From NCBI GenBank assembly GCA_965261665.1, contig OZ253467.1, forward strand, positions 2,503,941 through 2,567,940: 64,000 nt of DNA. The letters run 5' to 3'. Shown in pieces: positions 12,368 through 57,848 of the stretch. The notes beneath the pieces were generated by a model. The model ran no database searches and had not been told where the DNA came from. It worked only from the letters and a program-made list of their open reading frames with translations. Each line of letters opens with the position of its first letter. Positions within the stretch are counted from its first letter, which is position 1. Origin of the DNA: Dehalococcoidia bacterium. Its GTDB lineage: Bacteria; Chloroflexota; Dehalococcoidia; Lucifugimonadales; GCA-2712585. The position numbers were made by a program, and so were the translations under genes.

Positions 12368-12370
12368 TGC

Positions 12371-18285: not shown

Positions 18286-18561
18286 ATGAGTGGCGAATTC
18301 ACCAATCTAATTGCCATTTTGGGGGTTGGCATTGCGCTAGCGACCCTCATGTTCGCCATGTTCCGCATGCTGGATCGTCGGATTGACGAAACCAACCGGC
18401 GCTTTGACGATGTTAATCGACGCTTTGATGATGTCAACCGGCGCTTTGACGAAACTAATCGGAATGTTGCACGGTTAGCGGAGGACGTGGCCGAGCTCAA
18501 GGGGTCTCTCACCATCATACGTGACGCCATTAGGCTCCGCGTGGCTGAGCCGACCGAGTAG
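18286..18561 (+). CDS. Small N-terminally anchored single-pass membrane protein with heptad-repeat coiled coil
   Basis: The TM helix ..LIAILGVGIALATLMFAMF.. is followed by 3 tandem NRRFD(D/E)x heptads and a helical tail. The start was chosen at ATG 18286 (the ORF-track start is 18229). The antisense ORF is S/R-rich junk. Confidence 0.5.
   Translation: MSGEFTNLIAILGVGIALATLMFAMFRMLDRRIDETNRRFDDVNRRFDDVNRRFDETNRNVARLAEDVAELKGSLTIIRDAIRLRVAEPTE
18394..18456 (+). repeat. 3 x 21-bp in-frame tandem repeat (encodes NRRFDDV/NRRFDDV/NRRFDET)
   Basis: The units are aaccggcgctttgacgatgtt / aatcgacgctttgatgatgtc / aaccggcgctttgacgaaact, read directly from the sequence. Confidence 0.9.
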
Positions 18562-18951
18562 TCACTCCGCATCCATTTCCTGACTCGGCTCCCGCGAGTC
18601 GGATTTCACCGATGCGTTCTCGTCCTCCTCCAACTCATCGGTGAGGGTTGATTCAACCTTGGGCGCTTTGGTGCGGTGGGCGGCGGAGATTATCGCAGTG
18701 CTGGCCAGCGGATAGGTGAGAAGCACGAACACCAGCGTCAGAGCGGCGAGAACGCTGAGGGTCACCGACCGGCCAGCAAAGTGGATGATCACCCCCAGAA
18801 GCAACAATGCGATGCCGCCTGTGGAGCCCAGGCTGGTGGCATGCAGCCGGGTATACACATCGGGGAAACGGAGGAGGCCCAGAACGCCCAGAAGGGTCCA
18901 GGCCGCCCCGGCTGCCATGAGAAGCGCAGCAATACCGTCGGCTACGGACAT
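18562..18951 (-). CDS. mrpG: Na+(K+)/H+ antiporter subunit G
   Basis: ..LLGVLGLLRFPDVYTRLHATSL.. is the MnhG signature. It has an acidic C-terminal tail. The start was set at ATG 18951. Confidence 0.85.
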   Translation of the reverse strand: MSVADGIAALLMAAGAAWTLLGVLGLLRFPDVYTRLHATSLGSTGGIALLLLGVIIHFAGRSVTLSVLAALTLVFVLLTYPLASTAIISAAHRTKAPKVESTLTDELEEDENASVKSDSREPSQEMDAE

Positions 18952-19034
18952 TTCAGCGCCATCCCGCCATGCACGCGGGCAGGCAGGTTGCCCTCCCACC
19001 TGCGCAACCCAAATAGAATTGCCGGTCGTTCATG

Positions 19035-19298
19035 CTAAAAGGGCCTTCCGTTGATCAGATATTTGGCAACGGCAACGGAGGAGACCACCCCAATCAGGGC
19101 CAAAACGACTACCGCCGGAAAGAGCTCCGGCGCCCACTTGACAGTGAAGACGGCAATAAGTCCCAGGGCGAGCAGCATCGTTATCTCCACAGCCAGCAGC
19201 CTGTCCCCCGCCGTGGGCCCATCCACCAGCCGGTAGAGTGTCACAGGTAGGCCGAGGGCCAGCAAGACCATGGCAACATTCAGGGCGATTTCCACCAA
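19035..19298 (-). CDS. mrpF: Na+/H+ antiporter subunit F
   Basis: 87 aa with 3 TM helices. ..LYRLVDGPTAGDRLLA.. is typical of MnhF. Confidence 0.85.
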   Translation of the reverse strand: MVEIALNVAMVLLALGLPVTLYRLVDGPTAGDRLLAVEITMLLALGLIAVFTVKWAPELFPAVVVLALIGVVSSVAVAKYLINGRPF

Positions 19299-19786
19299 TT
19301 GAGTCCCTTTCCAAAGTGGGTTTCCAGATGGTTCACCAGCTCACGACGCGCGGCTTCTACGTCATCGGCATCCAGGACATGAACATAAAGGTACTGCCTG
19401 TCGGCGGAGAAATCGATGGTAATAGTGCCAGGCGTCAGGGTGATGGAGTTGGCCACGATGGTATGCTCCAGGTCGTCCATCTCGCCGACATAAACCTTCA
19501 GTATGGCGGACCGCACCGGACGTCTAAAGTCGACAATGAGTCGGGCAACTCTCACGTTGGCCAGCGCCACGGCCCAGCCGTAGCGGGCAATTCCGGCAGC
19601 GGCCGATATGGGGTTCGTCCACCCGCCCCAGCCTTCTGTGAACATCCCCGACAGAAGGCCTCGCCGAAGGTACAGATACAAAGCCGCAGCCATGAGAACG
19701 CCCGCCAAGGCCGCCACCCACTGTAGGGTGCTGCCCAGGAAGACCCAGAAGGCCGAGGCAAGAAGGATGAAGATAAGCGCTCGCAT
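19280..19786 (-). CDS. mrpE: Na+/H+ antiporter subunit E
   Basis: 168 aa. Its position between the D and F subunits, and its N-terminal 2 TM helices plus soluble domain, fit MnhE. Confidence 0.8.
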   Translation of the reverse strand: MRALIFILLASAFWVFLGSTLQWVAALAGVLMAAALYLYLRRGLLSGMFTEGWGGWTNPISAAAGIARYGWAVALANVRVARLIVDFRRPVRSAILKVYVGEMDDLEHTIVANSITLTPGTITIDFSADRQYLYVHVLDADDVEAARRELVNHLETHFGKGLNWWKSP

Positions 19787-19795
19787 TGGGTTTCT

Positions 19796-21301
19796 CTATT
19801 CTAGCAAGGACAGATTCACAGCGTCGACGTATTGGGTTGGGTCGAGAAGCTGCCGAGCCGCCTCGGACGTTATGTCTTGTAGACCGGCGGCGGCCACCGC
19901 CAGAACAACCGTGGCGGACGCCGCGATTGCGATGGGAACGGCGTAGAGGTATACCATTGAGGGCGCGGCGCGTTCCTCGTCATCTTTCCGACCCTCTCCC
20001 CAGAAGACCCACTGCCATATCCTGAACATCGCAAAAAGCGTTAGGAGGCTGCCAACGAGGGCCGCGCCGGCCATGGCGTAGGCAGCAGGGCTGTCCAGCC
20101 GTAGGGCGGACTCCAGAATGGCCAGCTTGCCCCAGAAACCGCTGAAGGGCGGGACGCCACCCAGGGACATGGCCGGCACCAGGAACAGTACGGCTAGAAG
20201 GGGATAGGCTCTCGCCAAGCCACCAAGCTGATTAATTCTACCCGTGCCTCGCAGTCTCTCCACCGCGGCCGCAACGGAAAAGAGGGCCGCCTTCACCGGC
20301 ATATACTGGAGCATGAAGAAGATGGCGGCTCCCACGGATGCGGTTGTGAATAGAGCCAGCCCCATCATCATGTACCCAACCTGGCTGACAATGTCCCACG
20401 TCAGGATCGACCGGATGTCCCTCTGGGCTACGGCCCCCAGCGCGCCCAAGACGATGCTAAACCCGGCCATTGTCAGAAGTATGGGCTGCACGAACTCCTG
20501 GTCGTGGCCGAGAACAAGAGTGAAGACCCGTATCATGCTGTACACGCCAACCTTAGTGAGCACCGCGCCGAAGAAGACGGCCACGCCGCTGGGCAGTTGG
20601 GCATAGGCGCCGGGCAGCCAAAAATGGAAGGGAATTAGCGCCGCCTTGATTCCGAAGGCCACCATCAGCAGCGCTCCCACCGCCGTCACCACCGCCCCGT
20701 TTTCGGCGCTTTCGGCGCGTATTGCGAGGTGTGCCATGTTCAGCGTGCCTAGTTCTCCGTAGAGCAAGCCGATTCCCATCAACAGAAAGGCTGAGCCGAT
20801 GACGTTGATGACCACGTACTTGAAGGCGGCCTCTGTTTGAAGCCGTCCTGCCCCGATGGCCATCAGGGCGTAGGAAGCCAGCAGAGTCACTTCGAAGAAT
20901 ACGAAGAGGTTGAAGATATCCCCCGTCATGAACGCCCCGTTCACCCCGGCCAGAAGGAAAAGCATGAAGGGAACGATGTACTTGCGTTGCCGCAAGTCCT
21001 GCGAGAGCATAACCACCGCGAAGGAAACCAAAGCAGCGAGGGAGGCTGCAACGACAGTCGCAGCGCTGAAAAGGTCCGCCACCAGCACAATGCCGAAGGG
21101 TCCCGGCCAATCGCCGAGATTGGTGGCTTGGATTCCCTCTCGCTGTATCAGGAACAAGGTATGGAAAGCCAGTCCCAATACGATCATTACCGTCGCTATG
21201 GCCACCCATCCGGCTATCTTGGGCCGGGCCAAGGCGGCAATTAGCAGAACAGCCCCTGTCAGGGGGACCAGCACGGGGGCAACCAGCAGGAAGTCCGTCA
21301 T
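19796..21301 (-). CDS. mrpD: Na+/H+ antiporter subunit D (NuoN/M-like)
   Basis: 501-aa polytopic ORF with proton-conducting-transporter motifs (..FFEVTLLASY.., ..IPFHFWLPGAY..). Confidence 0.9.
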   Translation of the reverse strand: MTDFLLVAPVLVPLTGAVLLIAALARPKIAGWVAIATVMIVLGLAFHTLFLIQREGIQATNLGDWPGPFGIVLVADLFSAATVVAASLAALVSFAVVMLSQDLRQRKYIVPFMLFLLAGVNGAFMTGDIFNLFVFFEVTLLASYALMAIGAGRLQTEAAFKYVVINVIGSAFLLMGIGLLYGELGTLNMAHLAIRAESAENGAVVTAVGALLMVAFGIKAALIPFHFWLPGAYAQLPSGVAVFFGAVLTKVGVYSMIRVFTLVLGHDQEFVQPILLTMAGFSIVLGALGAVAQRDIRSILTWDIVSQVGYMMMGLALFTTASVGAAIFFMLQYMPVKAALFSVAAAVERLRGTGRINQLGGLARAYPLLAVLFLVPAMSLGGVPPFSGFWGKLAILESALRLDSPAAYAMAGAALVGSLLTLFAMFRIWQWVFWGEGRKDDEERAAPSMVYLYAVPIAIAASATVVLAVAAAGLQDITSEAARQLLDPTQYVDAVNLSLLE

Positions 21302-21639
21302 CCCTTCAAGTTCCTCATGTTGTCCACGTCGTCGGAACCCATCGCCTTGTGGGTCCTAACGGCCAGGGTAAGCAGAAATGCGGCTATGCCGAAACCAATG
21401 ACGATAGCTGTAAGAATCAACGCTTGCACTAGCGGATCGGCGAGTCCTTCGATGGTCGCGCCTTTCTCGGCAATGGGGGAGCCTCCCTTGGTGAGCCGGC
21501 CCACGACGAAGATCGTCAAGTTGGCGGCGTGGGAAAGCAGCAGCAGTCCGACGACTATCTTGAAGACGCTGCGTTGGAGGAGCAGGAAAAGGCCCCCACC
21601 CGCCAATACGCCAACAGCTATGGACAGGGGAATCTCCAT
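21298..21639 (-). CDS. mrpC: Na+/H+ antiporter subunit C (NuoK-like)
   Basis: 113 aa with 3 TM helices. ..LLLSHAANL.. and ..DPLVQALILTAIVIGF.. are MnhC-like. Confidence 0.85.
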   Translation of the reverse strand: MEIPLSIAVGVLAGGGLFLLLQRSVFKIVVGLLLLSHAANLTIFVVGRLTKGGSPIAEKGATIEGLADPLVQALILTAIVIGFGIAAFLLTLAVRTHKAMGSDDVDNMRNLKG

Positions 21640-22253
21640 TATTCCCCCCCTTCAGTAGAGGAGGTCCCCTCAGCTGCTTCAGCCAGTTTCGGTGTCAGCG
21701 TGGATTCCACGTCGGGTGACGCATCTGCACCTTCCGCAGCATCCATTTCAGACGCACACTCCGCACCGTCAACCACCTCTTCTGCCACGCTAGAAGCCTG
21801 TTCGTCAGAAGGTCCGTCCAATGCCTCATCCCCGCAATCACGGGCCAAGGCCAGCACCGCCGTAACAACTCCACCCGCCACCAGCAGGAAAATACCAAAG
21901 TCGAAGAGCTGCGCCAGGGCAAACTCCATCTTCGCCCCCAAGATAGGCACGTCTACCGTTGCGTGGAAGCTGGTGAGGAAGGGATATCCCAGCACGAGGG
22001 GAGCCGTTGCCGCAGCAACGGCAATCACAAACCCCAGGGCCACAATTCGCTCGTAGGGCAACTTTAGAAACCTGGGCACGCCTTCCGGTCCATGAGCGAG
22101 GAACTGGAAGGCGACGGCCCCGCTCATCAGCACCCCCGCAATGAAACCACCCCCCGGGTTGTTATGCCCACTAACCAGGAAATAGAGCGTCAAAAGGGTC
22201 GTGAAGGGGAACGTCACCGACGCTACGACTCGAAGGATCGGACCTCTTATCAT
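21639..22253 (-). CDS. mrpB: Na+/H+ antiporter subunit B with acidic C-terminal extension
   Basis: 204 aa. The MnhB-domain motif ..GHNNPGGGFIAG.. is present. The last about 65 aa form a D/E/A/S-rich tail. Confidence 0.85.
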   Translation of the reverse strand: MIRGPILRVVASVTFPFTTLLTLYFLVSGHNNPGGGFIAGVLMSGAVAFQFLAHGPEGVPRFLKLPYERIVALGFVIAVAAATAPLVLGYPFLTSFHATVDVPILGAKMEFALAQLFDFGIFLLVAGGVVTAVLALARDCGDEALDGPSDEQASSVAEEVVDGAECASEMDAAEGADASPDVESTLTPKLAEAAEGTSSTEGGE

Positions 22254-22254
22254 C

Positions 22255-24582
22255 CTAGCGTCCTTCCCTCACGGCGCGAACCATGGCGAAAACGGCGAGG
22301 GCCGCCATTCCAACCACGGTTATTTCTCCGAGGGTATCGAAGCCGCGAAAGTCCACGAGAATGGTGTTGACTACGTTCTTCGCCTTGGCCAGCGCCGCGC
22401 TGTTCTCCAGGAAGAAGGGCGCTATAGAAGGGTGCTGGGGCGTCGCCAGCACCGTCAGCAGCAGGAACGTCACCATGGTTCCGAAGGCAGCGGAGAAGGT
22501 CAACTGGAGGGCCAGAACGCGGCGAGACGCGGAGACGTTGAATACCTTCAACATCTTGCTGATGCCCAGGACCAGCAGGACAACCATGAGCATCTCGATC
22601 ACCAGTTGGGTGAGGGCCAGGTCCGGCGCGCTGTACAAGGCAAAGGCAGCCGTCACCAGCGCGCCGACGAATCCCAGCCCCAAGACCATCTCCAGAGGAC
22701 GTCGTCGGAATAGCAAAACGACGGCACCTAACACCAGGAACAGGGCTAGGGCGTAGTCTAAGACGCCCAGGTTCCCGCCCTCTATGAGGCGCGAGAAGGG
22801 AGGCGCGCCGGAACGGACCAGCGCAGTGACTACAAGCGCCATGGCCGCCAAAACTATTACTGTAATGTATCGCCGCAGGTCGCCGTTCTGGAACCAGATG
22901 TATATTCGCGGCACCGAATGATCCAGAAAGTCCATTCCCTGCTGGAAACCCCGAACCGCCAAGCCCCGGCGAGTGAGGCCTCGCCCCATCAATGCCCATA
23001 CCCAATGATTGACCTGCCGGTGATAGTAATAAGCGGCAATTCCAAGGGCTATGGCAATGACACTGAAAGCCAAAGGCAGATTGAAACCGGCCCACAGGTG
23101 AAGACCAACCTTGTATGGATGTCCCACCAAGGAGGCCACCGCCGGGGATATCAGCCCCCCGTCTATCAATTCAGGGTGGACTCCTATAGCAACCGTAGCC
23201 AGGGCAAGCACTCCGGGAACCAGCACCAAAACGTTCGGAACGCTGGGACGGAAAGAGGGAGGCCCCAGGTACCTTCCCCCGAATGCGCCAATGAGGAACT
23301 TGAGGGAATAAGCCAGGGTGACGCCGCTCCCGACAACCAGCACACCGGTCGCGAGCCAATGGAAGGTGTCCGCACTATGTGGAACGTGCAGCGCCGCATC
23401 GAGAAGGACCTCCTTGCTAACGAAGCCGCTCAAAGGCGGGATGCCCCCAAGGGACAGAGACACCACGGCAGCTATTCCCGCCAAGGCAGGCATGAGATAG
23501 GCTAGACCTTCCAGAGAGTTGACTTCCCTGGTCCCAATCTCGTATTCGATGGTCCCCGCTATAAGGAAAAGCGCCCCCTTGTACACGGCGTGAGACACCA
23601 AATGCATTGTCGCCGCCACCGCAGCCAGCTCCGTGCCCAGCCCGTAAATGGCAATCATCATCCCCAGCTGGCTTATTGTGGAATAGGCAAGCAGCGCTTT
23701 CAGGTCGCTCTGCCGGAGGGCCAGCAGCCCGCCAATTATTAAAGTAATGAGTCCCAAGACAACCAGCGTAACTTCCCATGAGGCGACCCCCGCAAACACC
23801 GGGGAGAATCGGGCGACCAGGAAGATGCCGGCCTTGACCATCGTGGCCGAATGGAGGTAGGCGCTCACCGGCGTAGGGGCGACCATGGCGGAAGGAAGCC
23901 AGATGTGGAACGGGAAGATGGCCGACTTGGTTACGGCCCCAAGCAGCACAAGGATGACGATTGGCGTTAGCAGAGGTGACGCGCGAAGCTCCGACGCCCG
24001 CGCCAAGACTTCTTGCAATTCGAAGGTGCCGAGGGTTATGTAAATCAGGACGAATCCCGCCAGCATGGCCAGTCCGCCCACGACAGTGATCACCAGCGCC
24101 CTCGTGGCATTCCTTCTCGCCCGACCCCTTTCGTCGGAAAGGCCAATGAGGAAGTAGGAGCTTATGGTGGTCATCTCCCAAAATAGGTACAGGACGATGA
24201 GGTTGGCGGAGGTGACCAGCCCCAGCATGGATCCAGCGAAGATGAGCATCCAGCAATAGAACTTGAGCATGTGGGTATGGTGCCCCATGTACCGTTGCGA
24301 GTAGAGGAAAATGAGCGCGCCAATTCCCGTAATGAGCAGAACGAACAATAAGGAGTAACCGTCGAGGATGAAGGAGAGGTTGACTCCAAGGTCCGGAACC
24401 CAAGGATAGGAGAAGGATGCTGTGGCTTCCTCGGATGATGCGGGTACATGGGTAAGTGCGAGTCCGAAAAGGGAAGCCATGACGGCAGCGGCGTAGATGC
24501 CGAGGTATCTACGCAGGGGGCCGGGAAGTAGAAGGGCAACTACTCCCGCGGCCATGGGCACAGCAAAGAAGAGGAGGGTCAT
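22255..24582 (-). CDS. mrpA: Na+/H+ antiporter subunit A (NuoL-like, with C-terminal MrpB-like domain)
   Basis: 775-aa polytopic ORF. ..LFWEMTTISSY.. and ..FPFHIWLPSAM.. are present, and it is the first gene of the A-G operon. Confidence 0.9.
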   Translation of the reverse strand: MTLLFFAVPMAAGVVALLLPGPLRRYLGIYAAAVMASLFGLALTHVPASSEEATASFSYPWVPDLGVNLSFILDGYSLLFVLLITGIGALIFLYSQRYMGHHTHMLKFYCWMLIFAGSMLGLVTSANLIVLYLFWEMTTISSYFLIGLSDERGRARRNATRALVITVVGGLAMLAGFVLIYITLGTFELQEVLARASELRASPLLTPIVILVLLGAVTKSAIFPFHIWLPSAMVAPTPVSAYLHSATMVKAGIFLVARFSPVFAGVASWEVTLVVLGLITLIIGGLLALRQSDLKALLAYSTISQLGMMIAIYGLGTELAAVAATMHLVSHAVYKGALFLIAGTIEYEIGTREVNSLEGLAYLMPALAGIAAVVSLSLGGIPPLSGFVSKEVLLDAALHVPHSADTFHWLATGVLVVGSGVTLAYSLKFLIGAFGGRYLGPPSFRPSVPNVLVLVPGVLALATVAIGVHPELIDGGLISPAVASLVGHPYKVGLHLWAGFNLPLAFSVIAIALGIAAYYYHRQVNHWVWALMGRGLTRRGLAVRGFQQGMDFLDHSVPRIYIWFQNGDLRRYITVIVLAAMALVVTALVRSGAPPFSRLIEGGNLGVLDYALALFLVLGAVVLLFRRRPLEMVLGLGFVGALVTAAFALYSAPDLALTQLVIEMLMVVLLVLGISKMLKVFNVSASRRVLALQLTFSAAFGTMVTFLLLTVLATPQHPSIAPFFLENSAALAKAKNVVNTILVDFRGFDTLGEITVVGMAALAVFAMVRAVREGR

Positions 24583-37355: not shown

Positions 37356-37386
37356 TTGACAAATTGCACACTTGTACGTCTATAAT
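37356..37386 (+). promoter_or_regulatory. Putative promoter of the Fur-family gene
   Basis: Perfect TTGACA (37356-37361) and perfect TATAAT (37381-37386), but with a long 19-nt spacer. It lies about 40 nt upstream of ATG 37424. Confidence 0.35.
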
Positions 37387-37423
37387 CAAAGTAATCTTCA
37401 TAGATAGGAACGATATTCTACGA

Positions 37424-37882
37424 ATGGCTAATGTAAAGTCTGAGCCAGCGCCCCGCCCCTCGCCCTCGGAACTGCTGACCATATTGGAAGACCACGGATA
37501 TCGCCCCACCAACCAACGGAGGGACGTTGTCAGCCTCCTGGAATCCAAGGAGGTGGGCTTCACCGTTGAGGAGTTGACGGAAGAATTGATAGAGGTCGGC
37601 CGAGCTACGGTTTACCGCACCATCAAACTGCTTCTGGACGCCGGGGTGCTCTGCAAGGTGAGCCTGGCCGACGGTACGCCCAAGTACATTGTGGCGCGTC
37701 GGGAGCACCACCACCATACCGTTTGCGTGAAGTGCGACACGGTAGGGGAGTTTCGAAGCAGTACCGTCGAGCGGGTTCTGCGAACTATCGGGGCCGATAT
37801 TCCCGGCAGGATAGTAGGGCACCGCATGGAGATTTTTCTAATCTGCGATAGCTGCTCGGACACGGTTCCCTATTTTCGATAG
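37424..37882 (+). CDS. fur: Fur-family metalloregulator (Fur/Zur/PerR type)
   Basis: It has the winged-helix part ..TNQRRDVVSLL...FTVEEL..ATVYRT.., the metal site ..HHHHTVCVKCD.. and a C-terminal ..CDSC... The start was set at ATG 37424. Confidence 0.8.
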   Translation: MANVKSEPAPRPSPSELLTILEDHGYRPTNQRRDVVSLLESKEVGFTVEELTEELIEVGRATVYRTIKLLLDAGVLCKVSLADGTPKYIVARREHHHHTVCVKCDTVGEFRSSTVERVLRTIGADIPGRIVGHRMEIFLICDSCSDTVPYFR

Positions 37883-38849: not shown

Positions 38850-38923
38850 AATCGTTCTGTTCCTCCACGTAAAGCTTGGGGGATGATATCTGAAACTCGC
38901 CTCCCATTGCAAAGGAGGGGCCT

Positions 38924-39013
38924 GTCATTCTGAACGCAGCGAAGCGAAGTGAAGAATCTAGGGTTGAGGACGGCGAGTAGACGATGAGATTCTTCGCTTC
39001 CCTCAAAATGAAC
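38924..39013. repeat. Palindromic MITE/REP-like intergenic element, copy 2
   Basis: gtcattctgaacgcagcgaagcgaagtgaagaatctaggg ... gagattcttcgcttccctcaaaatgaac. It shares the terminal gtcattctgaacg and the gaagaatct/agattcttc stem with copy 1. Confidence 0.75.
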
Positions 39014-39114
39014 CATGGCCCAAGCGTAATACGCCGTCAATGTCGGAGGTTTGACGCCCCCGCCGCGGAATTCTATACTCCAACCACCCCACTAGAATCG
39101 GCTAGGAGGCTGTT

Positions 39115-39525
39115 ATGAGCATGGGTGCGCAGCTGCAGCACGCGGCATTTCACACCACAGACTTGGAGAAGGCTCGGGACTTCTACGGCAGGATTCTCGG
39201 CCTGCAGGAAATTGTCCGGCCCAACGTTATGAGCTCCGGCATCTGGTACAGCGCCGGCCCTGCCCACGAGCTTCACATCACCCTGAGCGGCGTTGATGGC
39301 GTACCCCAAAAGGGGCGTAACATCAATCCTCGCAAGCGGGGCGTGGAAGGACGTCATCTGGCCTTCGCCGTCGCCGACCTCAAACAGACCAAGCGGCTGC
39401 TCGACGACGAGGGGATCCCATACGTGGGCAGCAACGACGAATTACCGCAGATCTTCGTTGAAGACTTCGACGGCAACCTGGTGGAGTTGAACTCGGGCTG
39501 GGCGGAACAGCAGCCGGCTGTCTGA
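39115..39525 (+). CDS. VOC (glyoxalase/bleomycin-resistance/dioxygenase) family protein
   Basis: 136 aa. ..LQHAAFHTTDLEKARDFYGRILGL.. and ..GRHLAFAV.. are VOC beta-alpha-beta-beta-beta module motifs. Confidence 0.75.
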   Translation: MSMGAQLQHAAFHTTDLEKARDFYGRILGLQEIVRPNVMSSGIWYSAGPAHELHITLSGVDGVPQKGRNINPRKRGVEGRHLAFAVADLKQTKRLLDDEGIPYVGSNDELPQIFVEDFDGNLVELNSGWAEQQPAV

Positions 39526-39578
39526 AATCTGCTCAAATGCTAGAACCTCAGGACCTTCAGGCAAATTAAGGAGTTGAG

Positions 39579-40097
39579 ATGGTTATCAAAGACCCGAAGC
39601 GGGACGTTGAATACGACCCCATGGTTGGCGTTCGTGGCCCGGTGCGTCTGGCCTCCGTGGAGGCCACGGCGGAGGTGGTCCAGGACCAGCTGAAGCGCGG
39701 CAATTGCGGTCGGTGGGAGATAATCTGCGACGAGCCCCCCAGCCTTGGCGGCCTGGACGTGGCGCCGGCGCCCCTGCACTACTTCGCCATGGCCGTGCTT
39801 TTCTGAGAGATGACCCAGATTGCGCGGTACGCGCAGTTCAAAAAAGTGGAGATTTCCAACGTCAAGGGTTACATCAAGCTCAACCTGACCATGACGGGTT
39901 CCGTCCTGGCGGAGACCATTGACGCCGGGGCCTCCAGTGTGGAGACAAACTTCGTCGTGGAGTCATCGGCGGACCCGGAGACCATTCGGTCCATCCTAAT
40001 AAACGCCCGACGGGGATGCTGGGCAAGGCAGATGATTGCCAAACCCATCCCCTTCAAGGACACCCTTACACTTAACGACGAGAGCTTCGAGTTCTAG
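39579..40097 (+). CDS. OsmC/Ohr-family protein with one in-frame TGA (39804-39806): candidate selenocysteine codon (alternatively a pseudogene)
   Basis: Two same-frame ORFs are separated only by TGA-GAG. Joined, they form one OsmC-length protein (172 codons). The TGA falls in ..APLHYFAMAVLF*EMTQ.., where the family has its first conserved Cys. The second Cys is present (..RRGCWAR..). AAGGAG precedes ATG 39579. Confidence 0.55.
39818..39838 (+). promoter_or_regulatory. SECIS-like stem-loop 12 nt downstream of the in-frame TGA
   Basis: AUUGCGCG-GUA-CGCGCAGU (39819-39837) forms 7-8 bp of G+C-rich stem. The apical G and U (39827-39828) lie 23-24 nt 3' of the U of UGA. Confidence 0.45.
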
Positions 40098-40166
40098 CCG
40101 CCGACTTTCTATAATTCAGACAAGCAGCCCGGCTGTTTTCCCGGGGCGCTCTAAGGCGCACCGTTT

Positions 40167-41300
40167 CTAGTCGAACCCGTAAACCCGGGCGCAGTTGCCC
40201 CCGACTATCTTGTCCTGCTCCTCCGCCGGCACACCCTCCAAAATCTCCTCCAGAATCCGCTGAGACTCCGGGAATGTAGACTCGGCGTGGGGATAGTCAG
40301 AACCCCACATTAGATTCTCGACGCCGATCATGTGCCTCAGCTGGACTCCGAGGCCGTCCTCCTGGAAGCTGTGGAACACGTTGGAACGCATGAGGTCGCT
40401 GGGCGTTGCATCGCCCTTGAACCGATAGGGGGCGGACTGGTAGCGCTCCTTGTAGGTGACGTCCATCCTGCCCAGGAAGAAGGGAATCCAGCCCAACTCG
40501 TGCTCGGCGCTGACAATCTTCAGGTTGGGGTAGCGCTCTAGCACCCCGGCGAAGACGATGTGCCCCAAGCACTGGCGGACGAAGTAGTCGTGGTTACAGC
40601 GGTCGGCGCCCGTCTGGGCGATCTTGCCGTCTATGACCACCTGGATGGCCCCGGGCCGGTTGGTAGTGACGTGAAGGCTGATGGGTATGTTCAACTCTTC
40701 GGCGGCAGCCCAGAAGGGTTCGTACATGGGATGGTTGTATGTCTGCCCCGCCTTCGGGTAGGAGCTGATCATCGCTCCGATAAGGCCCATTTCGGCGCAG
40801 CGGCGCAGCTCGGCGATCCCCTCCTCCACGCCTTCGTCCAGCAGCACCTCCGCGATGCCTTTTAGCCTTTCGGGGTTGGCGCTGCAAAATTCCGCCAGCC
40901 AGTCGTTGTAGGCGGCAAAGACGGCGCGAAGCAGATCGTTGTTCTCCATGCCGTAGAGGGGCAGCCCCGTAGACGGATAGACCAGCCCGCCATACACGCC
41001 GTCCAGGTCCATATCCTTCACGTGCTCCTCCGGGATGAACCCTCCCGGCCGAACGTTGTCAAAGACCCCGGCTTGGATGATTTCCTGGGGGTTGGTGAAC
41101 CGCTTGCCCGCGGCTGCTATGGCGCCCGTCGGGCCCATCCTGATGTTGTCGTAGTACCACCAGTCGTAGGGGTCTTCAGCGTCCCCTTTCCGCAAATGGG
41201 GAATGCTGGTGCCGAACTTGGGGTCCATTCGGTCTTCCCAGAGGTTGGGTGGCTCCACAATGTGGGAGTCCGAAGAGATAACCTTGCCGTAGAGGGTCAT
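40167..41300 (-). CDS. Amidohydrolase_2 (ACMSD-like metal-dependent hydrolase/decarboxylase) paralog 1
   Basis: 377 aa with N-terminal ..ISSDSHIVEP.. and C-terminal ..WGSDYPHAES... Confidence 0.8.
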   Translation of the reverse strand: MTLYGKVISSDSHIVEPPNLWEDRMDPKFGTSIPHLRKGDAEDPYDWWYYDNIRMGPTGAIAAAGKRFTNPQEIIQAGVFDNVRPGGFIPEEHVKDMDLDGVYGGLVYPSTGLPLYGMENNDLLRAVFAAYNDWLAEFCSANPERLKGIAEVLLDEGVEEGIAELRRCAEMGLIGAMISSYPKAGQTYNHPMYEPFWAAAEELNIPISLHVTTNRPGAIQVVIDGKIAQTGADRCNHDYFVRQCLGHIVFAGVLERYPNLKIVSAEHELGWIPFFLGRMDVTYKERYQSAPYRFKGDATPSDLMRSNVFHSFQEDGLGVQLRHMIGVENLMWGSDYPHAESTFPESQRILEEILEGVPAEEQDKIVGGNCARVYGFD

Positions 41301-46995: not shown

Positions 46996-48123
46996 CTACA
47001 ACTGGAATCCGTAGAGAGCCGCCGAGTTATCTCTGATCACCTTCTGCTTGGCGGAAGGGTTTTTCAGGTCACGGAGGTTGTCCTCGATGGTCTGCAGCGA
47101 GTCGGGCCAAACGCCGTCCTGGTGGGGATAGTCGGAACCCCAGATTACGTTGCCTTCGCCTACGAGGTGAATGAGGTGGCCCGCCACGTTCTCTTTCTGG
47201 AACGTCGAGAACCCCTGGCGGTCCCAGTACTCGCTGGGCAGCATGGAGATGCCCGACTGGCCCTCGCCCTCGTGGTCCATCCGGTCGATGACGTAGGGTA
47301 TCCAGCTCACGCCGCACTCTCCCAGAACGAACTTGAAGTTGGGGTACCGTTCGCAAGCGCCTGAGAAGATTATGCTGGTGACGAACTCTGCACCCTGAAG
47401 CTGGAACATGGTGGTGCGAACGTTGTGGTACACCTCGTCGTACTGGGAGGCCTCAGAAGCGTCCACGGCCCGGGGCCGCAGACCCGTGGTATGGAACGAA
47501 ATGGAAAGGCCCGTATCGTGGGAGGCTTCCCAAAGCACGTCCCAGTCCCGGTGATAAATAGGCTTGACGGCGCCGGCCACGCCAAAGTCGCCGCCGTGGA
47601 GGCCGATGGTCGCGGCCCGTCGAAGCTCGTCGGCAGCCGCCTGCGGGCTGTGGTTGGGAATGCAGGCCAACCCGGCGAAGCGGCCGGGATGACTGTTGCA
47701 GAAGTCCGCCAGCCAGTCATTATAGATGCGGAAAATCTCGACAATCTGATCGTTATCATTGAGGGTGTGAGAAATCCGAAGAAGCCCGTATATCACCTCC
47801 GCGTCTATGCCGTCCTTGTCCTGGTCCTTGATCCGGAGGTCCGGGTTGGTGGGATGATACCCCTGGTCGGCGTCTTCGTAGAAGCCGGCGGAAATCATAG
47901 CGTTCCAACGAGTCCCCATCTCCGTGCTAAAGGTGCGCGGGTCCACTTCGTGGCCGACCACGCCCAAGTCAACTCCCCCGGCGTTCCAGCGACGGCCCTT
48001 GCCCGTCTCCACCACGTGGGGCATCTTGTCTACCATCCCCGCCGACGCGTTGGCGACGAATAGGTCCTCCGGCATGAACCGCAGGTCGATGTGACTGTCC
48101 CCGGAAATAATGTTGTAACCCAT
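46996..48123 (-). CDS. Amidohydrolase_2 paralog 2
   Basis: ..ISGDSHIDL.. and ..WGSDYPHQDG.. are present. The start was set at ATG 48123, preceded by GGAGAGGTGGAG (the ORF-track start is 48246). Confidence 0.8.
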   Translation of the reverse strand: MGYNIISGDSHIDLRFMPEDLFVANASAGMVDKMPHVVETGKGRRWNAGGVDLGVVGHEVDPRTFSTEMGTRWNAMISAGFYEDADQGYHPTNPDLRIKDQDKDGIDAEVIYGLLRISHTLNDNDQIVEIFRIYNDWLADFCNSHPGRFAGLACIPNHSPQAAADELRRAATIGLHGGDFGVAGAVKPIYHRDWDVLWEASHDTGLSISFHTTGLRPRAVDASEASQYDEVYHNVRTTMFQLQGAEFVTSIIFSGACERYPNFKFVLGECGVSWIPYVIDRMDHEGEGQSGISMLPSEYWDRQGFSTFQKENVAGHLIHLVGEGNVIWGSDYPHQDGVWPDSLQTIEDNLRDLKNPSAKQKVIRDNSAALYGFQL

Positions 48124-48300
48124 GATTGTCTCCACCTCTCCTAAAGTATTCAATTCCGCAATCCGATTGGCCAGATGGTATTGAACAGACTCCCCGGTGT
48201 CAAGAATACGTCTAAGCCAATGCCCAGCAAAAGACCGCCCCTCCATGACGGACGGAGGCGGTCTTCGGGCCTATAGGACCGTTGTGTATTGGTTGCTATT

Positions 48301-48627
48301 CTATGGCCACAACCTCATTACACCAATAACAAGGGCGAATCCCGTAATCATGAGACCGCCCAATCGAACCATCAGCCGTAGTTCCAATTCCTTCAGGTCC
48401 GCTTTGGTGGCGTAGTGCTGCCGAAATTCGTCTCGCAACAACGCCAGTTCTTGTCGCATGTCGGCTTTGAGAGACGCCATTTCTCCCTGTATGTCAGTTT
48501 TGAGAGACGCCATCCCTCCCTGCACGTCAGCTTTGAGAGACGCCATTTCTCCCTGCACGTCGGCTTTGAGAGACCCGATTTCTTCCCGCAACTCGGATCT
48601 GGTTACTGGCGCTTCCGTGGTTACCAC
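48301..48627 (-). CDS. Small C-terminally anchored coiled-coil protein (DUF1640-like) with 4 x 11-aa tandem repeats
   Basis: 108 aa with a GTG start preceded by GAGGA. It reads GS/EMASLKADVQG x4, then ..QHYATKADLKELELRL.. and the C-terminal TM helix ..LGGLMITGFALVIGVM... Confidence 0.6.
   Translation of the reverse strand: MVTTEAPVTRSELREEIGSLKADVQGEMASLKADVQGGMASLKTDIQGEMASLKADMRQELALLRDEFRQHYATKADLKELELRLMVRLGGLMITGFALVIGVMRLWP
48458..48589 (-). repeat. 4 x 33-bp in-frame tandem repeat
   Basis: The units start at 48458, 48491, 48524 and 48557 (atgtcggctttgagagacgccatttctccctgt and variants). They differ at only a few positions. Confidence 0.9.
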
Positions 48628-48666
48628 AGTATCCTCACTGTGCCCCTTTTTGTACTCTTGTTCTTG

Positions 48667-48695
48667 ATTCTAGCACAGATGTCGCTCATCCTCAA
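48667..48695 (-). promoter_or_regulatory. Putative extended -10 promoter for the 48301-48627 gene
   Basis: Minus strand: TTGAGG (48695-48690), a 17-nt spacer and TGC-TAGAAT (-10 hexamer at 48672-48667), about 40 nt upstream of GTG 48627. Confidence 0.4.
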
Positions 48696-48770
48696 TCAAT
48701 CCATCTACACTTGCCGAGAAAAAGCCGTAATGGTTTATCGTTCAAGTACAGGACGGTGGCGGATACGACC

Positions 48771-49316
48771 CTACGGGTTCACAACCCAGCTTACATTAAC
48801 GTTTACCGCCTGCAGGGGGAAGGGGTTGAAGAAGAATATCTGATGCTCTCCGTTGATCTCAGCTTCAACGGAAACAGTGTCCGAGTCCGTCGTATCGTCG
48901 ATGGTCACCAGCGGAGTACCCAAGGAGTCATTTATGACTAGCTTGATACCTTCGCTGGCCTTTCCGATGCCGGCGCTGACATTCTGGCCTCCCGTGATCA
49001 TCGACTCCACGTCGAAACTCAATTCCAGGATGTCGCCGGCGGTCAATTCAACTACGATGGTCCCCGTTTCGTTGGCGGTGATGAACAGAGTCTCGGAGCC
49101 GGATGAGGGCCCTCCTTGCTGGGGGACTGCTGCGGGGGTTTCCACCGGGGGCTGAGTTGCTGGGGCCGCGGTGGCGGGCGCAGCTGTGGCCACGAGAGCG
49201 GGGCTTTCGTCGTTTCCGTTTCCTCCGCCGCATGCCGCCACTAGCAGCAGGAGAAGGACGGAAAGGCCCGCCACGTACAGGGCGGGCTGTCTAAGTTTAG
49301 AGCGAATCTGCATCAT
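48771..49316 (-). CDS. Hypothetical lipoprotein
   Basis: The signal plus lipobox is ..LLLLLVAAC, followed by an A/P/T-rich linker and a beta-rich domain of about 110 aa. GGGAGA precedes ATG 49316. Confidence 0.55.
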   Translation of the reverse strand: MMQIRSKLRQPALYVAGLSVLLLLLVAACGGGNGNDESPALVATAAPATAAPATQPPVETPAAVPQQGGPSSGSETLFITANETGTIVVELTAGDILELSFDVESMITGGQNVSAGIGKASEGIKLVINDSLGTPLVTIDDTTDSDTVSVEAEINGEHQIFFFNPFPLQAVNVNVSWVVNP

Positions 49317-49366
49317 ACATTCTCCCAAGTTCTAACTGTTGTGCCGGGGTTGCCGCAGGGGCGCAT

Positions 49367-50497
49367 TCACGCGTGGGGATGTCCCGCTACCAACCGCTCT
49401 CCGTAGATTTTTACTGAGTTGTCCCAGAGGATCTTACGCTTGGTGTCTTCCGAAAGGGGCTGCTCCATCATGTTGGGCAGGGGTTCGTTTGTCGCCGGTG
49501 CGTCGGGGTGCGGATAGTCCGTGTTGAACACGATGTTGTCGTCGCCGATGTAGTCCACCACGTATTTGATGGAGGGCTCGTCGGCGTCCGCCGCCACGGC
49601 GCACTGCCGCAGGAAGTACTCCTGGGGCGTCAGTTTCAGCGGGTGGTCGTCGAAGAAGACGGACTGCCGTCCTTCGCAATACTTCTCCAGCCTGTTCAGC
49701 CAGAAGGGCACCCAGCCGGAGTTCGCTTCCAGGATGAGCAATTTAAGGTTTGGGAACTTGTCCAGGATGCCACTGTACATGAAGTGGCCCAGGTTGATCA
49801 TGTTCTCGAAGGGGAAGCCGATGGCCTGTCCCAAGGCGATGAAGGGGCCGGCGTGTGGGTTGTAGCGGGCATTAGTCCAGGGTTCGCCGCTGGCGCTGCT
49901 GCTGCCGTGAACCGAGATGGGGACTTCCAGATCTGTGACTGTCTCCCAGACCTTAGTGTAGTCCGGATGGTGCCACATCTTCTCCGGGATAGCCTTGGGC
50001 AGGAAAATTGAAACGGCGCCCAACTCCGAAACGGAGCGGCGAATTTCAGCCACCATGTCGTCGATATCATGTCCCGGCACCGTGGCAGTGAATTTGATGC
50101 GTTCTGGCGCGCCGCTACAAAAGTCGTGGGCCCAACTGTTGTAGGCGCAGCACATGGCTCCCTGAACGTCGTCCGGGATGAAGGCGGGCAGCGACACTGC
50201 CTTGGTGGGCAGGCAAACTTGGATATCCCATCCCTCCGTGTCCATGTCCTTGATGCGACTCTCCAGGGTCCAACCATCCCGGAAGGCATGGCCAAATTTG
50301 TTGTCCATCTCGGAGAAGAGCTTCTCGGAGCGGGAAACGCCACCCTCTTCGCCTTCGAACTGGACCATGGAATTGCCCAACATGCGGGCAACCTTGGGCC
50401 TTCTATCCTGAAACTCGGGGCTCAGGTACTTGTCCCAAAGATATTCGGGCTCGTAGAAATGCCCGTCAGCGTCAATTACTCTAAATCCGTTGCGCAT
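49367..50497 (-). CDS. Amidohydrolase_2 paralog 3
   Basis: 376 aa with ..IDADGHFYEP.. and ..FNTDYPHPDA... Confidence 0.8.
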   Translation of the reverse strand: MRNGFRVIDADGHFYEPEYLWDKYLSPEFQDRRPKVARMLGNSMVQFEGEEGGVSRSEKLFSEMDNKFGHAFRDGWTLESRIKDMDTEGWDIQVCLPTKAVSLPAFIPDDVQGAMCCAYNSWAHDFCSGAPERIKFTATVPGHDIDDMVAEIRRSVSELGAVSIFLPKAIPEKMWHHPDYTKVWETVTDLEVPISVHGSSSASGEPWTNARYNPHAGPFIALGQAIGFPFENMINLGHFMYSGILDKFPNLKLLILEANSGWVPFWLNRLEKYCEGRQSVFFDDHPLKLTPQEYFLRQCAVAADADEPSIKYVVDYIGDDNIVFNTDYPHPDAPATNEPLPNMMEQPLSEDTKRKILWDNSVKIYGERLVAGHPHA

Positions 50498-56723: not shown

Positions 56724-57848
56724 CTACTTGAAGTCCATGTTGTACAGCTTGATGACGTTATCCCGCGTAATCTTCCGCTTGTAGATCTCCGGCAGACCGG
56801 CGAAGTCCTCGTCCACAATCTCCTTCGAGTTGGGGAACGTCGACGCCCCGTGGGGGTAGTCGCTGGCCCAGGCGTAGTTGTCCTCGCCAAAGTAGTCCGC
56901 AAGCTGCAGCCCGACGGGGTCAGTCTGATAGCTCACGTAGAACTGCCTGAGGGCGTACTCCCTCGGCGTCATCTTCAATTCCGTGGGGTTCGTGTACTGC
57001 TGCTTCTCCCACCACCTGTCGGCCCGGAAGAGGAAGTGAGGCACCCAGCCGATGTCGTTTTCCGCCGAAACTATCGTCAGGCCGGGGTGGCGCTCCAGCA
57101 CGCCCGAGAACATTATCTGGGAGAAGGAACGTTGAATCTCATGGATAATGCCTATCACCCTGACATAATTCTCCTTGAATATTCCCTCCGCCTTGCTCTC
57201 GTCGGCATGGCCCGTGAGAATGTGCAGGCTGATGGGCATGCTCAGGTCTGCCGCAACGGCCCAGAACGGCTCATACATAGGGTTGGAGTAGCTAAGCCCG
57301 TCGGGAGGCGAGGCCATTATTACCCCGCCCCTCAAGCCCAACTCAGCGCACCGATTCAACTCCTTGATCCCTTCTTCTACATTCATTAGCGGAATCAGCC
57401 CAAGACCCACCAGATGCCTGGGATTCGTCTGGCAGAACTCCGCCAGCCAGGTGTTGTAGGCGGCGAAGACCGCCTCCTGGAATGGAGCATCCGTCAACCT
57501 AAACAGGTCGAAAGCCAGCGAGGTGTAGATGACCTCTGCCTCCACGCCGTCTCTCTCCAGGTCCCCCATCCGCGCCGCCGGGTCATAGGCCCCGGGCGGG
57601 CACTCCTCGAAGTCGGGGTCCCTGTCCTGCTGCGCCTTCACCTCCTTGGGTGAAAGGCCGGCGTTGAACAGCCCAATTATCTTCTTCGGCTCCATGCCCT
57701 CTATGATGAAGTAGTGGCCCCTCATCCCCGGCGGGTCCTTGACAATTCGCGGCGCCCTGTCCTTGAAGGACGGATCGATGTAGTCCACCCACATTTCCGG
57801 CGGCTCCACCACGTGGGAATCTGCGGAAATCAGCTTGAAGTCGGGCAT
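56724..57848 (-). CDS. Amidohydrolase_2 paralog 4
   Basis: 374 aa with ..ISADSHVVEP.. and ..WASDYPHGAS... Confidence 0.8.
   Translation of the reverse strand: MPDFKLISADSHVVEPPEMWVDYIDPSFKDRAPRIVKDPPGMRGHYFIIEGMEPKKIIGLFNAGLSPKEVKAQQDRDPDFEECPPGAYDPAARMGDLERDGVEAEVIYTSLAFDLFRLTDAPFQEAVFAAYNTWLAEFCQTNPRHLVGLGLIPLMNVEEGIKELNRCAELGLRGGVIMASPPDGLSYSNPMYEPFWAVAADLSMPISLHILTGHADESKAEGIFKENYVRVIGIIHEIQRSFSQIMFSGVLERHPGLTIVSAENDIGWVPHFLFRADRWWEKQQYTNPTELKMTPREYALRQFYVSYQTDPVGLQLADYFGEDNYAWASDYPHGASTFPNSKEIVDEDFAGLPEIYKRKITRDNVIKLYNMDFK

What the first reader, a model, noticed from the sequence alone, without database searches (positions are those of the whole stretch)
39579..40097. In-frame TGA at the redox-Cys position of an OsmC-family gene plus a SECIS-like hairpin: candidate selenoprotein
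ORFs 39579-39806 and 39810-40097 are in the same frame and are separated only by TGA (39804-39806) and GAG. Joined, they give one OsmC/Ohr-length protein; neither half is a complete domain, and only the first has a Shine-Dalgarno (AAGGAG). The TGA sits in ..APLHYFAMAVLF[TGA]EMTQIARYA.., 11 residues after the helix-starting Pro. As I recall E. coli OsmC (..NPEELIGAAHAAC..), that is the spacing of the first conserved Cys. The second family Cys is retained (..NARRGCWARQ..), which would give a Sec...Cys redox pair. A G+C-rich stem-loop AUUGCGCG-GUA-CGCGCAGU starts 12 nt after the TGA. Its apical G-U lie 23-24 nt 3' of the UGA, which matches bacterial SECIS geometry. To my recollection, OsmC-like selenoproteins have been predicted in marine metagenome surveys. 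If so, the family would not be new, but this locus would still be mis-annotated as two fragments or a pseudogene by standard pipelines.
Basis: partly seen in the sequence, partly recalled or inferred. Interest (0 to 1): 0.75.

Follow-up and report, generated by a model that had tools for sequence, protein, structure and literature searches.

The report
OsmC-like selenoprotein gene, known family
The apparent stop codon in the middle of this small antioxidant-type gene almost certainly encodes selenocysteine at the catalytic site. It belongs to an OsmC-like selenoprotein family that has been described since 2005, and gene callers still cut the gene into two "hypothetical" fragments.

Summary
Window 39579-40097 (+) is one 172-codon reading frame with a single in-frame TGA at 39804-39806.

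- **Family:** The joined protein matches Pfam OsmC. It also matches the curated NCBIfam model NF041052 "OsmC-related (seleno)protein" over the whole profile (147 bits, cutoff 95).
- **Sec/Cys pair:** The TGA aligns with the first conserved Cys of OsmC/Ohr-type proteins. That column is Cys in at least 90% of 24 full-length homologues and in the four solved structures whose alignments were printed. The second family Cys (C147) is kept.
- **Conservation:** All 20 independent loci examined keep TGA at this codon, from 99% identity to the full protein down to about 38% over the C-terminal half. Most are Dehalococcoidia/Chloroflexota MAGs. dN/dS is 0.05-0.25 on both sides of the TGA.
- **SECIS:** The hairpin at 39819-39837 has compensatory changes at 5 of its 8 pairs. 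Its apical G-U is kept in 19 of the 20 loci. Synonymous sites are frozen exactly there.
- **Prior knowledge:** The UxxT motif (here U-E-M-T) is the one published for OsmC-like selenoproteins in the Sargasso Sea (2005) and GOS (2008) surveys.

So this is a genuine but already known kind of selenoprotein. What remains is an annotation error: public collections hold the gene as 75-aa and 95-aa fragments. The Sec machinery (selA, selB, selC, selD) is not in the window and could not be checked in this genome.

The parts
39568..39573 (+). Shine-Dalgarno AAGGAG, 5 nt upstream of the ATG
   Evidence: Read directly from the sequence.
39579..40097 (+). Complete coding sequence of a 172-residue OsmC-like selenoprotein (codon 76 = UGA/Sec; terminal stop TAG)
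   Evidence: One frame. Pfam OsmC E=3.7e-10 spanning the TGA. NCBIfam NF041052 OsmC_like_Se, 147 bits against a cutoff of 95, profile positions 3-144 of 144. dN/dS is 0.05-0.25 in both halves.
39804..39806 (+). In-frame UGA, predicted selenocysteine codon (U76, motif U-E-M-T = UxxT)
   Evidence: Invariant TGA in 20 of 20 loci. Aligns with Cys in at least 90% of full-length homologues and with Cys in PDB 3cje, 2opl, 2onf and 9wo1.
39807..39818 (+). 12-nt spacer GAGAUGACCCAG between the UGA and the stem, nearly invariant
   Evidence: Alignment A4. It lies within the stretch of lowest synonymous variation.
39819..39837 (+). SECIS-like stem-loop: 8-bp stem (core 6 bp, 39821-39826 with 39830-39835) and apical loop GUA (39827-39829)
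   Evidence: 91% of cells are paired, 5 of 8 pairs carry compensatory double changes, and 0 of 500 shuffles reach that. Slid controls pair at 15-57%. Individual folds in distant loci reproduce the same stem with different sequences.
40017..40019 (+). TGC codon of Cys147 (RRGCWARQ), the second conserved family Cys and predicted resolving partner
   Evidence: At least 90% conserved in alignment A1. Aligns with the second Cys of 3cje (KKGCFLEQ).
39115..39525 (+). Upstream same-strand glyoxalase/VOC-family gene, ending in a genuine TGA stop 53 nt before the selenoprotein start; possible operon partner
   Evidence: Pfam Glyoxalase matches profile positions 2-121 of 121. The only promoter-like site in 38900-40400 is at 39051-39079, upstream of this gene. 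Co-transcription is inferred, not shown.

Best explanation
Window 39579-40097 encodes one 172-residue OsmC-like (COG1765/PF02566, NCBIfam NF041052) selenoprotein.

**Decoding.** Translation starts at the SD-preceded ATG at 39579. At UGA 39804-39806 the ribosome does not terminate. The stem-loop 12 nt downstream (39819-39837, GC-rich stem, apical G-U) acts as a bacterial SECIS. It recruits SelB-GTP-Sec-tRNA(Sec), which inserts selenocysteine at residue 76, and translation continues to TAG at 40095-40097.

**Catalysis.** U76 occupies the peroxidatic-Cys position at the start of the active-site helix of the OsmC/Ohr fold. C147 occupies the resolving-Cys position. The likely chemistry is thiol-dependent reduction of a (hydro)peroxide or a similar redox substrate. 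It would run through a selenenic acid that collapses to a Se-S bond with C147 and is then re-reduced by an unknown thiol donor.

**Shown here:** the single frame, family membership, the Sec/Cys alignment, conservation of the UGA, purifying selection on both halves, and a covarying hairpin.

**Inferred:** actual Sec insertion, SelB binding, peroxidase chemistry, and the reductant.
For: - **Single frame and domain:** one frame, and the OsmC domain spans the TGA.
- **Curated family:** the selenoprotein-family HMM NF041052 is matched end to end, above cutoff.
- **Aligned residue:** Cys in the four PDB OsmC-like/OsmC structures whose alignments were printed (3cje, 2opl, 2onf, 9wo1) and in at least 90% of 24 full-length homologues. 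The second Cys is conserved.
- **UGA conservation:** TGA, never TAA or TAG, is at this codon in 20 of 20 independent loci. Twelve of these are species-representative Dehalococcoidia/Chloroflexota genomes. Six are metagenome loci only 38-48% identical over the C-terminal half. The terminal stop codon, by contrast, varies.
- **Selection:** dN/dS is 0.05-0.25 on both sides at dS 0.6-1.5.
- **Hairpin covariation:** 5 of 8 pairs carry double compensatory changes, and 0 of 500 shuffles reach that. The apical G-U is kept in 19 of the 20 loci.
- **Synonymous suppression:** it is centred on codons 75-87.
- **TGA is a normal stop elsewhere:** it ends 8 of 47 large ORFs, including the adjacent glyoxalase gene whose Pfam domain is complete.
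- **Literature:** OsmC-like selenoproteins with a UxxT motif (PMC1088965, PMC2398784, PMC13188914). Dehalococcoidia MAGs that met BSepDB's Sec-system criterion (at least two of SelA, SelB, SelD) carry 46-49 selenoprotein genes (PMC13326102).
Against: - No selA, selB, selD or tRNA-Sec lies in the 64-kb window or in the fetched flanks. The rest of the genome could not be searched.
- On this sequence alone the hairpin's stability is not exceptional (z = -0.93).
- Rfam has no matching SECIS family.
- One close homologue (L006) has an A.C mismatch in the stem.
- There is no protein-level evidence of selenium incorporation.
- Peroxidase activity of this COG1765-type subfamily has not been shown here.
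Confidence: 0.93

Rival explanations
1. Split gene. The UGA is a true stop, and the AUG four nucleotides later (UGAGAGAUG) re-initiates translation. The cell would then make separate 75-aa and 95-aa polypeptides that may assemble into an OsmC-like fold lacking the first catalytic Cys.
For: An AUG lies 0-1 codon after the UGA in every Sec-form locus examined. Gene callers annotate exactly these two pieces.
Against: - The break falls exactly on the catalytic Cys column.
- The stop is always TGA, while the real terminal stop varies.
- The second AUG has no Shine-Dalgarno.
- Met at position +2 also occurs in Cys forms, for example CVMTQ in 3cje, so it is a family residue and not a dedicated start.
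- The covarying hairpin with a conserved G-U loop at SECIS distance has no role in this model.
- The curated NCBIfam model treats the family as a (seleno)protein.
Confidence: 0.03
2. UGA is read through or recoded without selenium. Either near-cognate Cys/Trp insertion occurs, or UGA is reassigned lineage-wide as a sense codon.
For: The Sec machinery was not found in the available 64 kb. TGA is the least used stop in the window, at 8 of 47 large ORFs.
Against: - TGA terminates genes with complete Pfam domains, including the adjacent glyoxalase gene, an ABC-transporter permease (BPD_transp_1) and PlsY. It is therefore not reassigned.
- Only one in-frame TGA in a supported coding frame occurs in the window, and it sits at a Cys column.
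- The downstream structure has bacterial SECIS geometry and covaries.
- Related Dehalococcoidia are documented Sec users (PMC13326102).
Confidence: 0.03
3. Pseudogene or sequencing error: a nonsense mutation or a miscalled base in a former Cys (TGC/TGT) codon.
For: A TGY-to-TGA change is a single substitution. One relative (L002) really is damaged, N-terminally truncated beside an IS element.
Against: The same TGA is present in 20 independent assemblies at synonymous divergence up to saturation, with dN/dS of 0.05-0.25 on both sides. No close relative at 40% identity or more was found with TGC or TGT.
Confidence: 0.01

Closest known systems
OsmC-like selenoprotein family (NCBIfam NF041052 'OsmC-related (seleno)protein'; Zhang, Fomenko and Gladyshev 2005, Sargasso Sea; Zhang and Gladyshev 2008, GOS; UxxT motif, COG1765/PF02566)
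   Same: - Same Pfam domain, and a full-length match to the curated HMM above cutoff.
- Sec at the first conserved Cys, and a UxxT motif (U-E-M-T).
- A SECIS-like hairpin immediately 3' of the UGA, with a small apical loop containing G.
- Found in environmental metagenome-assembled genomes; the published family members came from marine metagenomes.
   Different: Nothing substantive. This copy comes from a Dehalococcoidia-type MAG and is unannotated as a selenoprotein. I could not compare it residue by residue with the published Sargasso sequences (AACY01145085) or with MCS5647933.1, because those sequences were not retrievable with the tools.
Cys-containing OsmC-like proteins, e.g. PDB 3cje (Jannaschia sp. 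OsmC-like protein) and 2opl
   Same: Same fold family. 3cje scores E=7.9e-25 against the family profile. The motifs align..GCVMTQIRAFA.. with ..FUEMTQIARYA.., and KKGCFLEQ with RRGCWARQ.
   Different: They carry Cys rather than Sec at the first redox position. They are only about 30-39% identical, and no Cys form was found closer than about 39%.
Ohr / OsmC organic hydroperoxide reductases (e.g. PDB 6mjn, 3eer, 1vla, 9wo1)
   Same: These are detectable profile-level homologues (E from 2.7e-9 to 5.3e-6). They have the same two-Cys architecture: a peroxidatic Cys at the start of the active-site helix and a resolving Cys in the C-terminal helix.
   Different: They form a distant subfamily. Their peroxidase activity and lipoyl-dependent recycling are established (general knowledge) but untested for this COG1765-type clade. 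None of those solved structures is a selenoprotein.
E. coli fdhF SECIS (the bacterial SECIS paradigm)
   Same: A stem-loop inside the coding region starts 11-13 nt after the UGA, with G-U in the apical loop about 23-25 nt from the U of UGA. The fdhF numbering (G23/U24) is recalled from the literature and was not recomputed here.
   Different: Here the perfect GC-rich stem is longer, the loop is a 3-nt GUA, and no bulged U is evident. The loop G-U is shifted by +1 nt.

Membership tests
OsmC-like selenoprotein (NCBIfam NF041052 / PF02566, UxxT) | Protein matches the family HMM above the curated cutoff | tested here: met
   NF041052.1 scores 147 bits against a cutoff of 95, over profile positions 3-144 of 144. 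Pfam OsmC scores 40.6 bits against 27.5.
OsmC-like selenoprotein (NCBIfam NF041052 / PF02566, UxxT) | In-frame UGA aligned with a conserved Cys of homologues (Sec/Cys pair), in a UxxT motif | tested here: met
   Position 76 is Cys in at least 90% of 24 full-length homologues and in 3cje, 2opl, 2onf and 9wo1. The motif is U-E-M-T. The UxxT motif is given in PMC1088965 and PMC2398784.
OsmC-like selenoprotein (NCBIfam NF041052 / PF02566, UxxT) | UGA conserved in orthologues, with purifying selection on both sides | tested here: met
   TGA in 20 of 20 loci. dN/dS is 0.05-0.25 in both halves.
Bacterial selenoprotein gene (general) | SECIS stem-loop immediately downstream of the UGA, with a small apical loop containing G | tested here: met
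   Stem at nt 16-23 paired with nt 27-34, loop G24-U25-A26. Five of 8 pairs covary and 0 of 500 shuffles reach that. Synonymous-site suppression is centred there. bSECISearch itself was not available.
Bacterial selenoprotein gene (general) | Genome encodes selA, selB, selD and tRNA-Sec (selC) | not testable with these tools
   None are in the 64-kb window or the fetched flanks. The AIRS-family protein at 6788-7798 is below the SelD cutoff (80.5 against 125). Class-level support only: Sec-utilising Dehalococcoidia MAGs with 46-49 selenoproteins (PMC13326102).
Bacterial selenoprotein gene (general) | Selenium is actually incorporated at the UGA | not testable with these tools
   Requires 75Se labelling or mass spectrometry.
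Ohr/OsmC thiol peroxidases | Two conserved redox Cys (peroxidatic and resolving) in the OsmC fold | tested here: met
   U76 and C147 align with the two family Cys columns.
Ohr/OsmC thiol peroxidases | Hydroperoxide reductase activity, and the catalytic Arg/Glu of Ohr or OsmC proper | not tested
   Only distant profile similarity to Ohr and OsmC structures (E from 2.7e-9 to 5.3e-6). The catalytic Arg and Glu were not mapped, and activity is biochemical.

The most novel reading that the evidence does not exclude
The strictly conserved AUG placed 0-1 codon after the Sec-UGA (UGA-GAG-AUG, or UGA-AUG in L021) might be more than a family residue. When selenium is scarce, termination at UGA followed by immediate re-initiation could yield two fragments instead of the full selenoprotein. 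That would make the locus a selenium-dependent switch. Separately, the clade at 40% identity or more appears to be Sec-only, with no Cys revertants. This could mean its chemistry strictly requires selenium. Nothing here tests either idea directly.
Probability: 0.04. Interest if true: 0.5.

Novelty: already known. Interest (0 to 1): 0.15.

Why it matters
The main value is annotation hygiene. Public protein collections hold this gene as two unnamed fragments: a 75-aa cluster with 55 members and a 95-aa cluster with 38 members. The exhaustive protein search also returned many roughly 90-aa fragments that start just after the UGA. As a result the selenoproteome and antioxidant repertoire of marine and subsurface Dehalococcoidia are under-counted. 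The locus adds a well-supported SECIS with real covariation for a Chloroflexota lineage. It does not reveal a new mechanism or a new family.

Tried and rejected
- The exhaustive representative search would not accept the joined protein, because only exact window sequences are allowed. I used the C-terminal half instead. Under the same restriction the joined protein was not submitted for structure prediction, so no model was made.
- **Metagenome scan failed.** Distant loci were fetched one at a time with the look-up of encoding contigs. Two of these had no DNA available.
- **Source contig not retrievable.** The window's own contig could not be fetched, so the rest of the genome could not be searched for selA, selB, selC or selD.
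- **No Sec machinery in reach.** Pfam and NCBIfam scans of about 60 window ORFs found none. The AIRS-family protein at 6788-7798 was considered as SelD and rejected as below cutoff. ARAGORN on all loci found no tRNA-Sec.
- **Rfam.** Gathering and E-value scans gave no SECIS family, only a chance snoRNA hit.
- **Other selenoprotein genes.** A scan of the window for in-frame TGAs with long open flanks, with and without a SECIS-like hairpin, returned only wrong-frame artefacts apart from this locus.
- **BSepDB supplements.** They are not held as text, so I could not check whether the specific MAGs are listed as Sec users.
- **SelD/SelA homology search not run.** I chose not to spend a large homology search on E. 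coli SelD or SelA. The output would be dominated by close relatives of the query and could not be tied to this genome.

Full report
**1. The observation**

Window 39579-40097 (+) is a single reading frame of 173 codons. It has one internal stop, TGA at 39804-39806, followed by GAG and ATG, and it ends in TAG. AAGGAG lies at 39568-39573, 5 nt before the first ATG. Nothing comparable precedes the ATG at 39810.

With Cys substituted at codon 76 for the search, the joined 172-residue protein hits Pfam OsmC (PF02566) over residues 60-160, so the match runs across the TGA (E=3.7e-10, 40.6 bits against a cutoff of 27.5). The N-terminal 75 residues alone give no hit. The C-terminal 95 residues alone score 22.0 bits, below the cutoff.

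The hairpin AUUGCGCG-GUA-CGCGCAGU lies at 39819-39837, starting 12 nt after the TGA. On this sequence alone its stability is unremarkable: z = -0.93 for a 76-nt segment. The case that it is more than chance therefore rests on comparison with other loci.

**2. The codon sits at a catalytic Cys column**

A phmmer search against PDB aligns position 76 with Cys in 3cje (OsmC-like protein..LTGCVMTQIRAFA..) and in 2opl. The second Cys of 3cje (KKGCFLEQ) aligns with RRGCWARQ in the window protein.

An exhaustive HMMER search with the C-terminal half returned 94 proteins. Many are roughly 90-aa fragments that start exactly at the residue after the TGA position. About two dozen are full-length proteins of 167-207 aa. 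Aligning 24 of the full-length proteins with the joined protein gives these results:
- Position 76 is Cys in at least 90% of them.
- C147 is Cys in at least 90% of them.
- P65, 11 residues upstream of position 76, is invariant.

A profile built from that alignment finds 3cje (E=7.9e-25), 2opl, 2onf, an OsmC (9wo1), Ohr structures (6mjn, 3eer), T. maritima OsmC (1vla) and, weakly, E. coli YhfA (1ml8). The Cys column matches in every alignment shown.

**3. The UGA is conserved under purifying selection**

All 20 word-index homologues were 95-aa C-terminal fragments at 67-100% identity. Gene callers therefore cut the gene at the same place everywhere.

A scan of species-representative genomes gave 12 full loci, 11 labelled Dehalococcoidia and one labelled only Chloroflexota, at 73-99% protein identity. 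Every one has TGA at codon 76 with an intact frame on both sides. Six more distant metagenome loci also keep TGA at that codon (L016-L021; 38-48% identity in the C-terminal half). Their local contexts are ILF-U-EMSQ, ILF-U-EMTQ, LLF-U-EMTQ, LLL-U-EMTQ, VLF-U-QMTG and IGL-U-MLTQ.

T-G-A is invariant in the 20-sequence alignment. The terminal stop codon, by contrast, varies among close relatives. dN/dS is 0.05-0.25 in both halves at dS 0.6-1.5. This excludes a pseudogene or an assembly error.

TGA is a normal terminator elsewhere in the window:
- It ends 8 of 47 large ORFs.
- These include the adjacent glyoxalase-family gene, whose Pfam domain is complete.
- They also include an ABC-transporter permease (BPD_transp_1) and PlsY.

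The genetic code is therefore standard.

**4. The hairpin is a conserved, covarying structure**

In the 20-locus alignment, the stem at nt 16-23 paired with nt 27-34 (U of UGA = 1) is paired in 91% of cells. Five of its 8 pairs carry double compensatory changes. Examples are U-A to C-G at 18/32, and C-G to U-A, A-U or G-C at 20/30. There are also G-C to C-G changes at 19/31 and 21/29, and C-G to A-U at 22/28. None of 500 column shuffles reaches this, and sliding the 3' arm by 1-3 columns drops pairing to 15-57%.

These compensatory changes alter the encoded residues while keeping the stem: IARYAQ becomes IVRVAR, IERYAQ, IGRYAH or IQRFSE. The apical G24 is invariant and U25 is kept in 19 of the 20 loci.

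Among 12 close sequences, codon entropy at residues with an invariant amino acid is 0.28 for codons 77-87 against 1.05 elsewhere (Mann-Whitney p=1e-4). The least variable 11-codon windows of the gene start at codons 75-78.

This geometry is a stem-loop inside the ORF that begins about 12 nt after the UGA and has a small G-containing apical loop. It is the geometry described for bacterial SECIS elements (PMC1088965). By my recollection it also matches the E. coli fdhF element to within 1 nt.

Rfam has no matching family. That is unsurprising for short SECIS elements that sit inside coding sequence and differ from one protein family to another.

**5. What it is**

The joined protein matches NCBIfam NF041052.1, "OsmC_like_Se, OsmC-related (seleno)protein". 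The score is 147 bits against a cutoff of 95, over profile positions 3-144 of 144.

The published record on this family:
- OsmC-like protein (COG1765) is one of the 15 selenoprotein families first reported from the Sargasso Sea, with redox motif UxxT (PMC1088965).
- It was found again in GOS, with 5 Sec sequences and 161 Cys homologues (PMC2398784).
- It is listed in a 2026 review of the prokaryotic selenoproteome (PMC13188914).
- BSepDB (2026) lists two Dehalococcoidia MAGs with 46 and 49 selenoprotein genes. That database only includes species with at least two of SelA, SelB and SelD (PMC13326102).

The window's motif, U-E-M-T, is UxxT. This locus is therefore an ordinary member of a known, curated selenoprotein family, in a class already known to use Sec heavily.

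**6. How it most likely works**

*Shown here:*
- One frame, and family membership above the curated cutoff.
- The Sec/Cys pair at the catalytic column.
- A conserved UGA with purifying selection on both sides.
- A covarying hairpin at SECIS distance.

*Inferred:*
- SelB-GTP-Sec-tRNA(Sec) binds the hairpin and decodes UGA as Sec76.
- Sec76, at the peroxidatic position at the start of the active-site helix, attacks a hydroperoxide or related oxidant.
- The resulting selenenic acid condenses with Cys147, at the resolving position.
- A thiol reductant regenerates the enzyme, as in Ohr and OsmC.

The reductant and the substrate are unknown. Peroxidase activity of this COG1765-like subfamily was not tested.

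The gene lies 53 nt downstream of a same-strand glyoxalase/VOC-family gene. The only promoter-like site in 38900-40400 is upstream of that gene, at 39051-39079, so the two may form an operon. This is weak evidence.

**7. What could not be tested**

No selA, selB, selD or tRNA-Sec lies in the window or in the fetched flanks. The AIRS-family protein at 6788-7798 is below the cutoffs for SelD, ThiL and HypE. Presence of the machinery in this genome therefore remains the main open check.

**8. Rivals**

- **Split gene with re-initiation at the AUG after the UGA.** This would explain the conserved AUG. It would not explain the exclusive use of TGA, the coincidence with the catalytic Cys column, or the covarying hairpin with a G-U loop. 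Met at position +2 also occurs in Cys forms such as CVMTQ in 3cje.
- **Selenium-independent read-through or reassignment of UGA.** Normal TGA stops in the window argue against it.
- **Pseudogene or sequencing error.** Conservation excludes it.

**9. Annotation status and verdict**

Public collections hold the gene as a 75-aa cluster (55 members) and a 95-aa cluster (38 members). The members are unnamed or called "hypothetical protein", for example MBM3926605.1 from a SAR202 cluster bacterium. Interest is low: this is an annotation correction, not a discovery.

Noticed in passing
window 15341-15429 (+) and 62415-62517 (-): ARAGORN calls an 89-nt tRNA-Gly and a 103-nt tRNA-Leu. Both lie inside Pfam-supported ORFs: TPP_enzyme_C at 14738-15724 (-) and SBP_bac_5 at 61195-63171 (+). 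Rfam's gathering scan finds no tRNA in the window. They are probably false positives, and neither is tRNA-Sec.
   Followed up: partly
window 6788-7798 (+): A 336-aa AIR-synthase-related protein (AIRS + AIRS_C) resembles HypE, ThiL and SelD. It falls below every NCBIfam cutoff: HypE 123 against 251, ThiL 114 against 184, SelD 80.5 against 125. It has no N-terminal Cys/Sec-Gly-Cys-Lys motif. It is not SelD, and its function is unclear.
   Followed up: partly
L002 2348-3288: One relative (ENA ERZ26166691 contig_8) has lost about the first 36 codons of the OsmC-like gene next to an IS3-type transposase (rve, HTH_Tnp_1). It still keeps the TGA and the hairpin, with a U18-to-C change. It is probably a recently inactivated copy.
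   Followed up: partly
window 48456-48590: A 33-nt tandem repeat of 4.1 copies at 85% match lies inside an ORF with no Pfam match (48415-48843, +). It gives a repeated ...FERRHFSLHV... peptide. An equally unannotated ORF overlaps on the opposite strand at 48771-49328.
   Followed up: no
window 37364-37882 (+): A Fur-family regulator (PF01475) lies 1.7 kb upstream of the selenoprotein gene. It could be a PerR/Fur/Zur-type sensor relevant to oxidative stress, but no link was tested.
   Followed up: no
whole window: Stop-codon usage among ORFs of 150 aa or more is TAG 25, TAA 14 and TGA 8, in a window of 59% G+C. The dominance of TAG and the scarcity of TGA are unusual for that composition.
   Followed up: no
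window 40167-41300, 46996-48246, 49367-50497, 56724-57848 (all -); L019 1-1087 and 2575-3267: Four Amidohydro_2 (PF04909) paralogues lie in the window, one of them convergent with the selenoprotein gene. A distant OsmC-like Sec locus (L019) is also flanked by Amidohydro_2 genes. This may reflect family expansion in these lineages or a loose association.
   Followed up: no
window 4643-5821 (-), 11267-14704 (-), 18144-24582 (-): Other landmarks in the window: dnaN with no dnaA next to it, a McrBC-type restriction system (McrC-like plus AAA_5 McrB-like), and a multi-subunit Mrp/Mnh cation-proton antiporter cluster.
   Followed up: no
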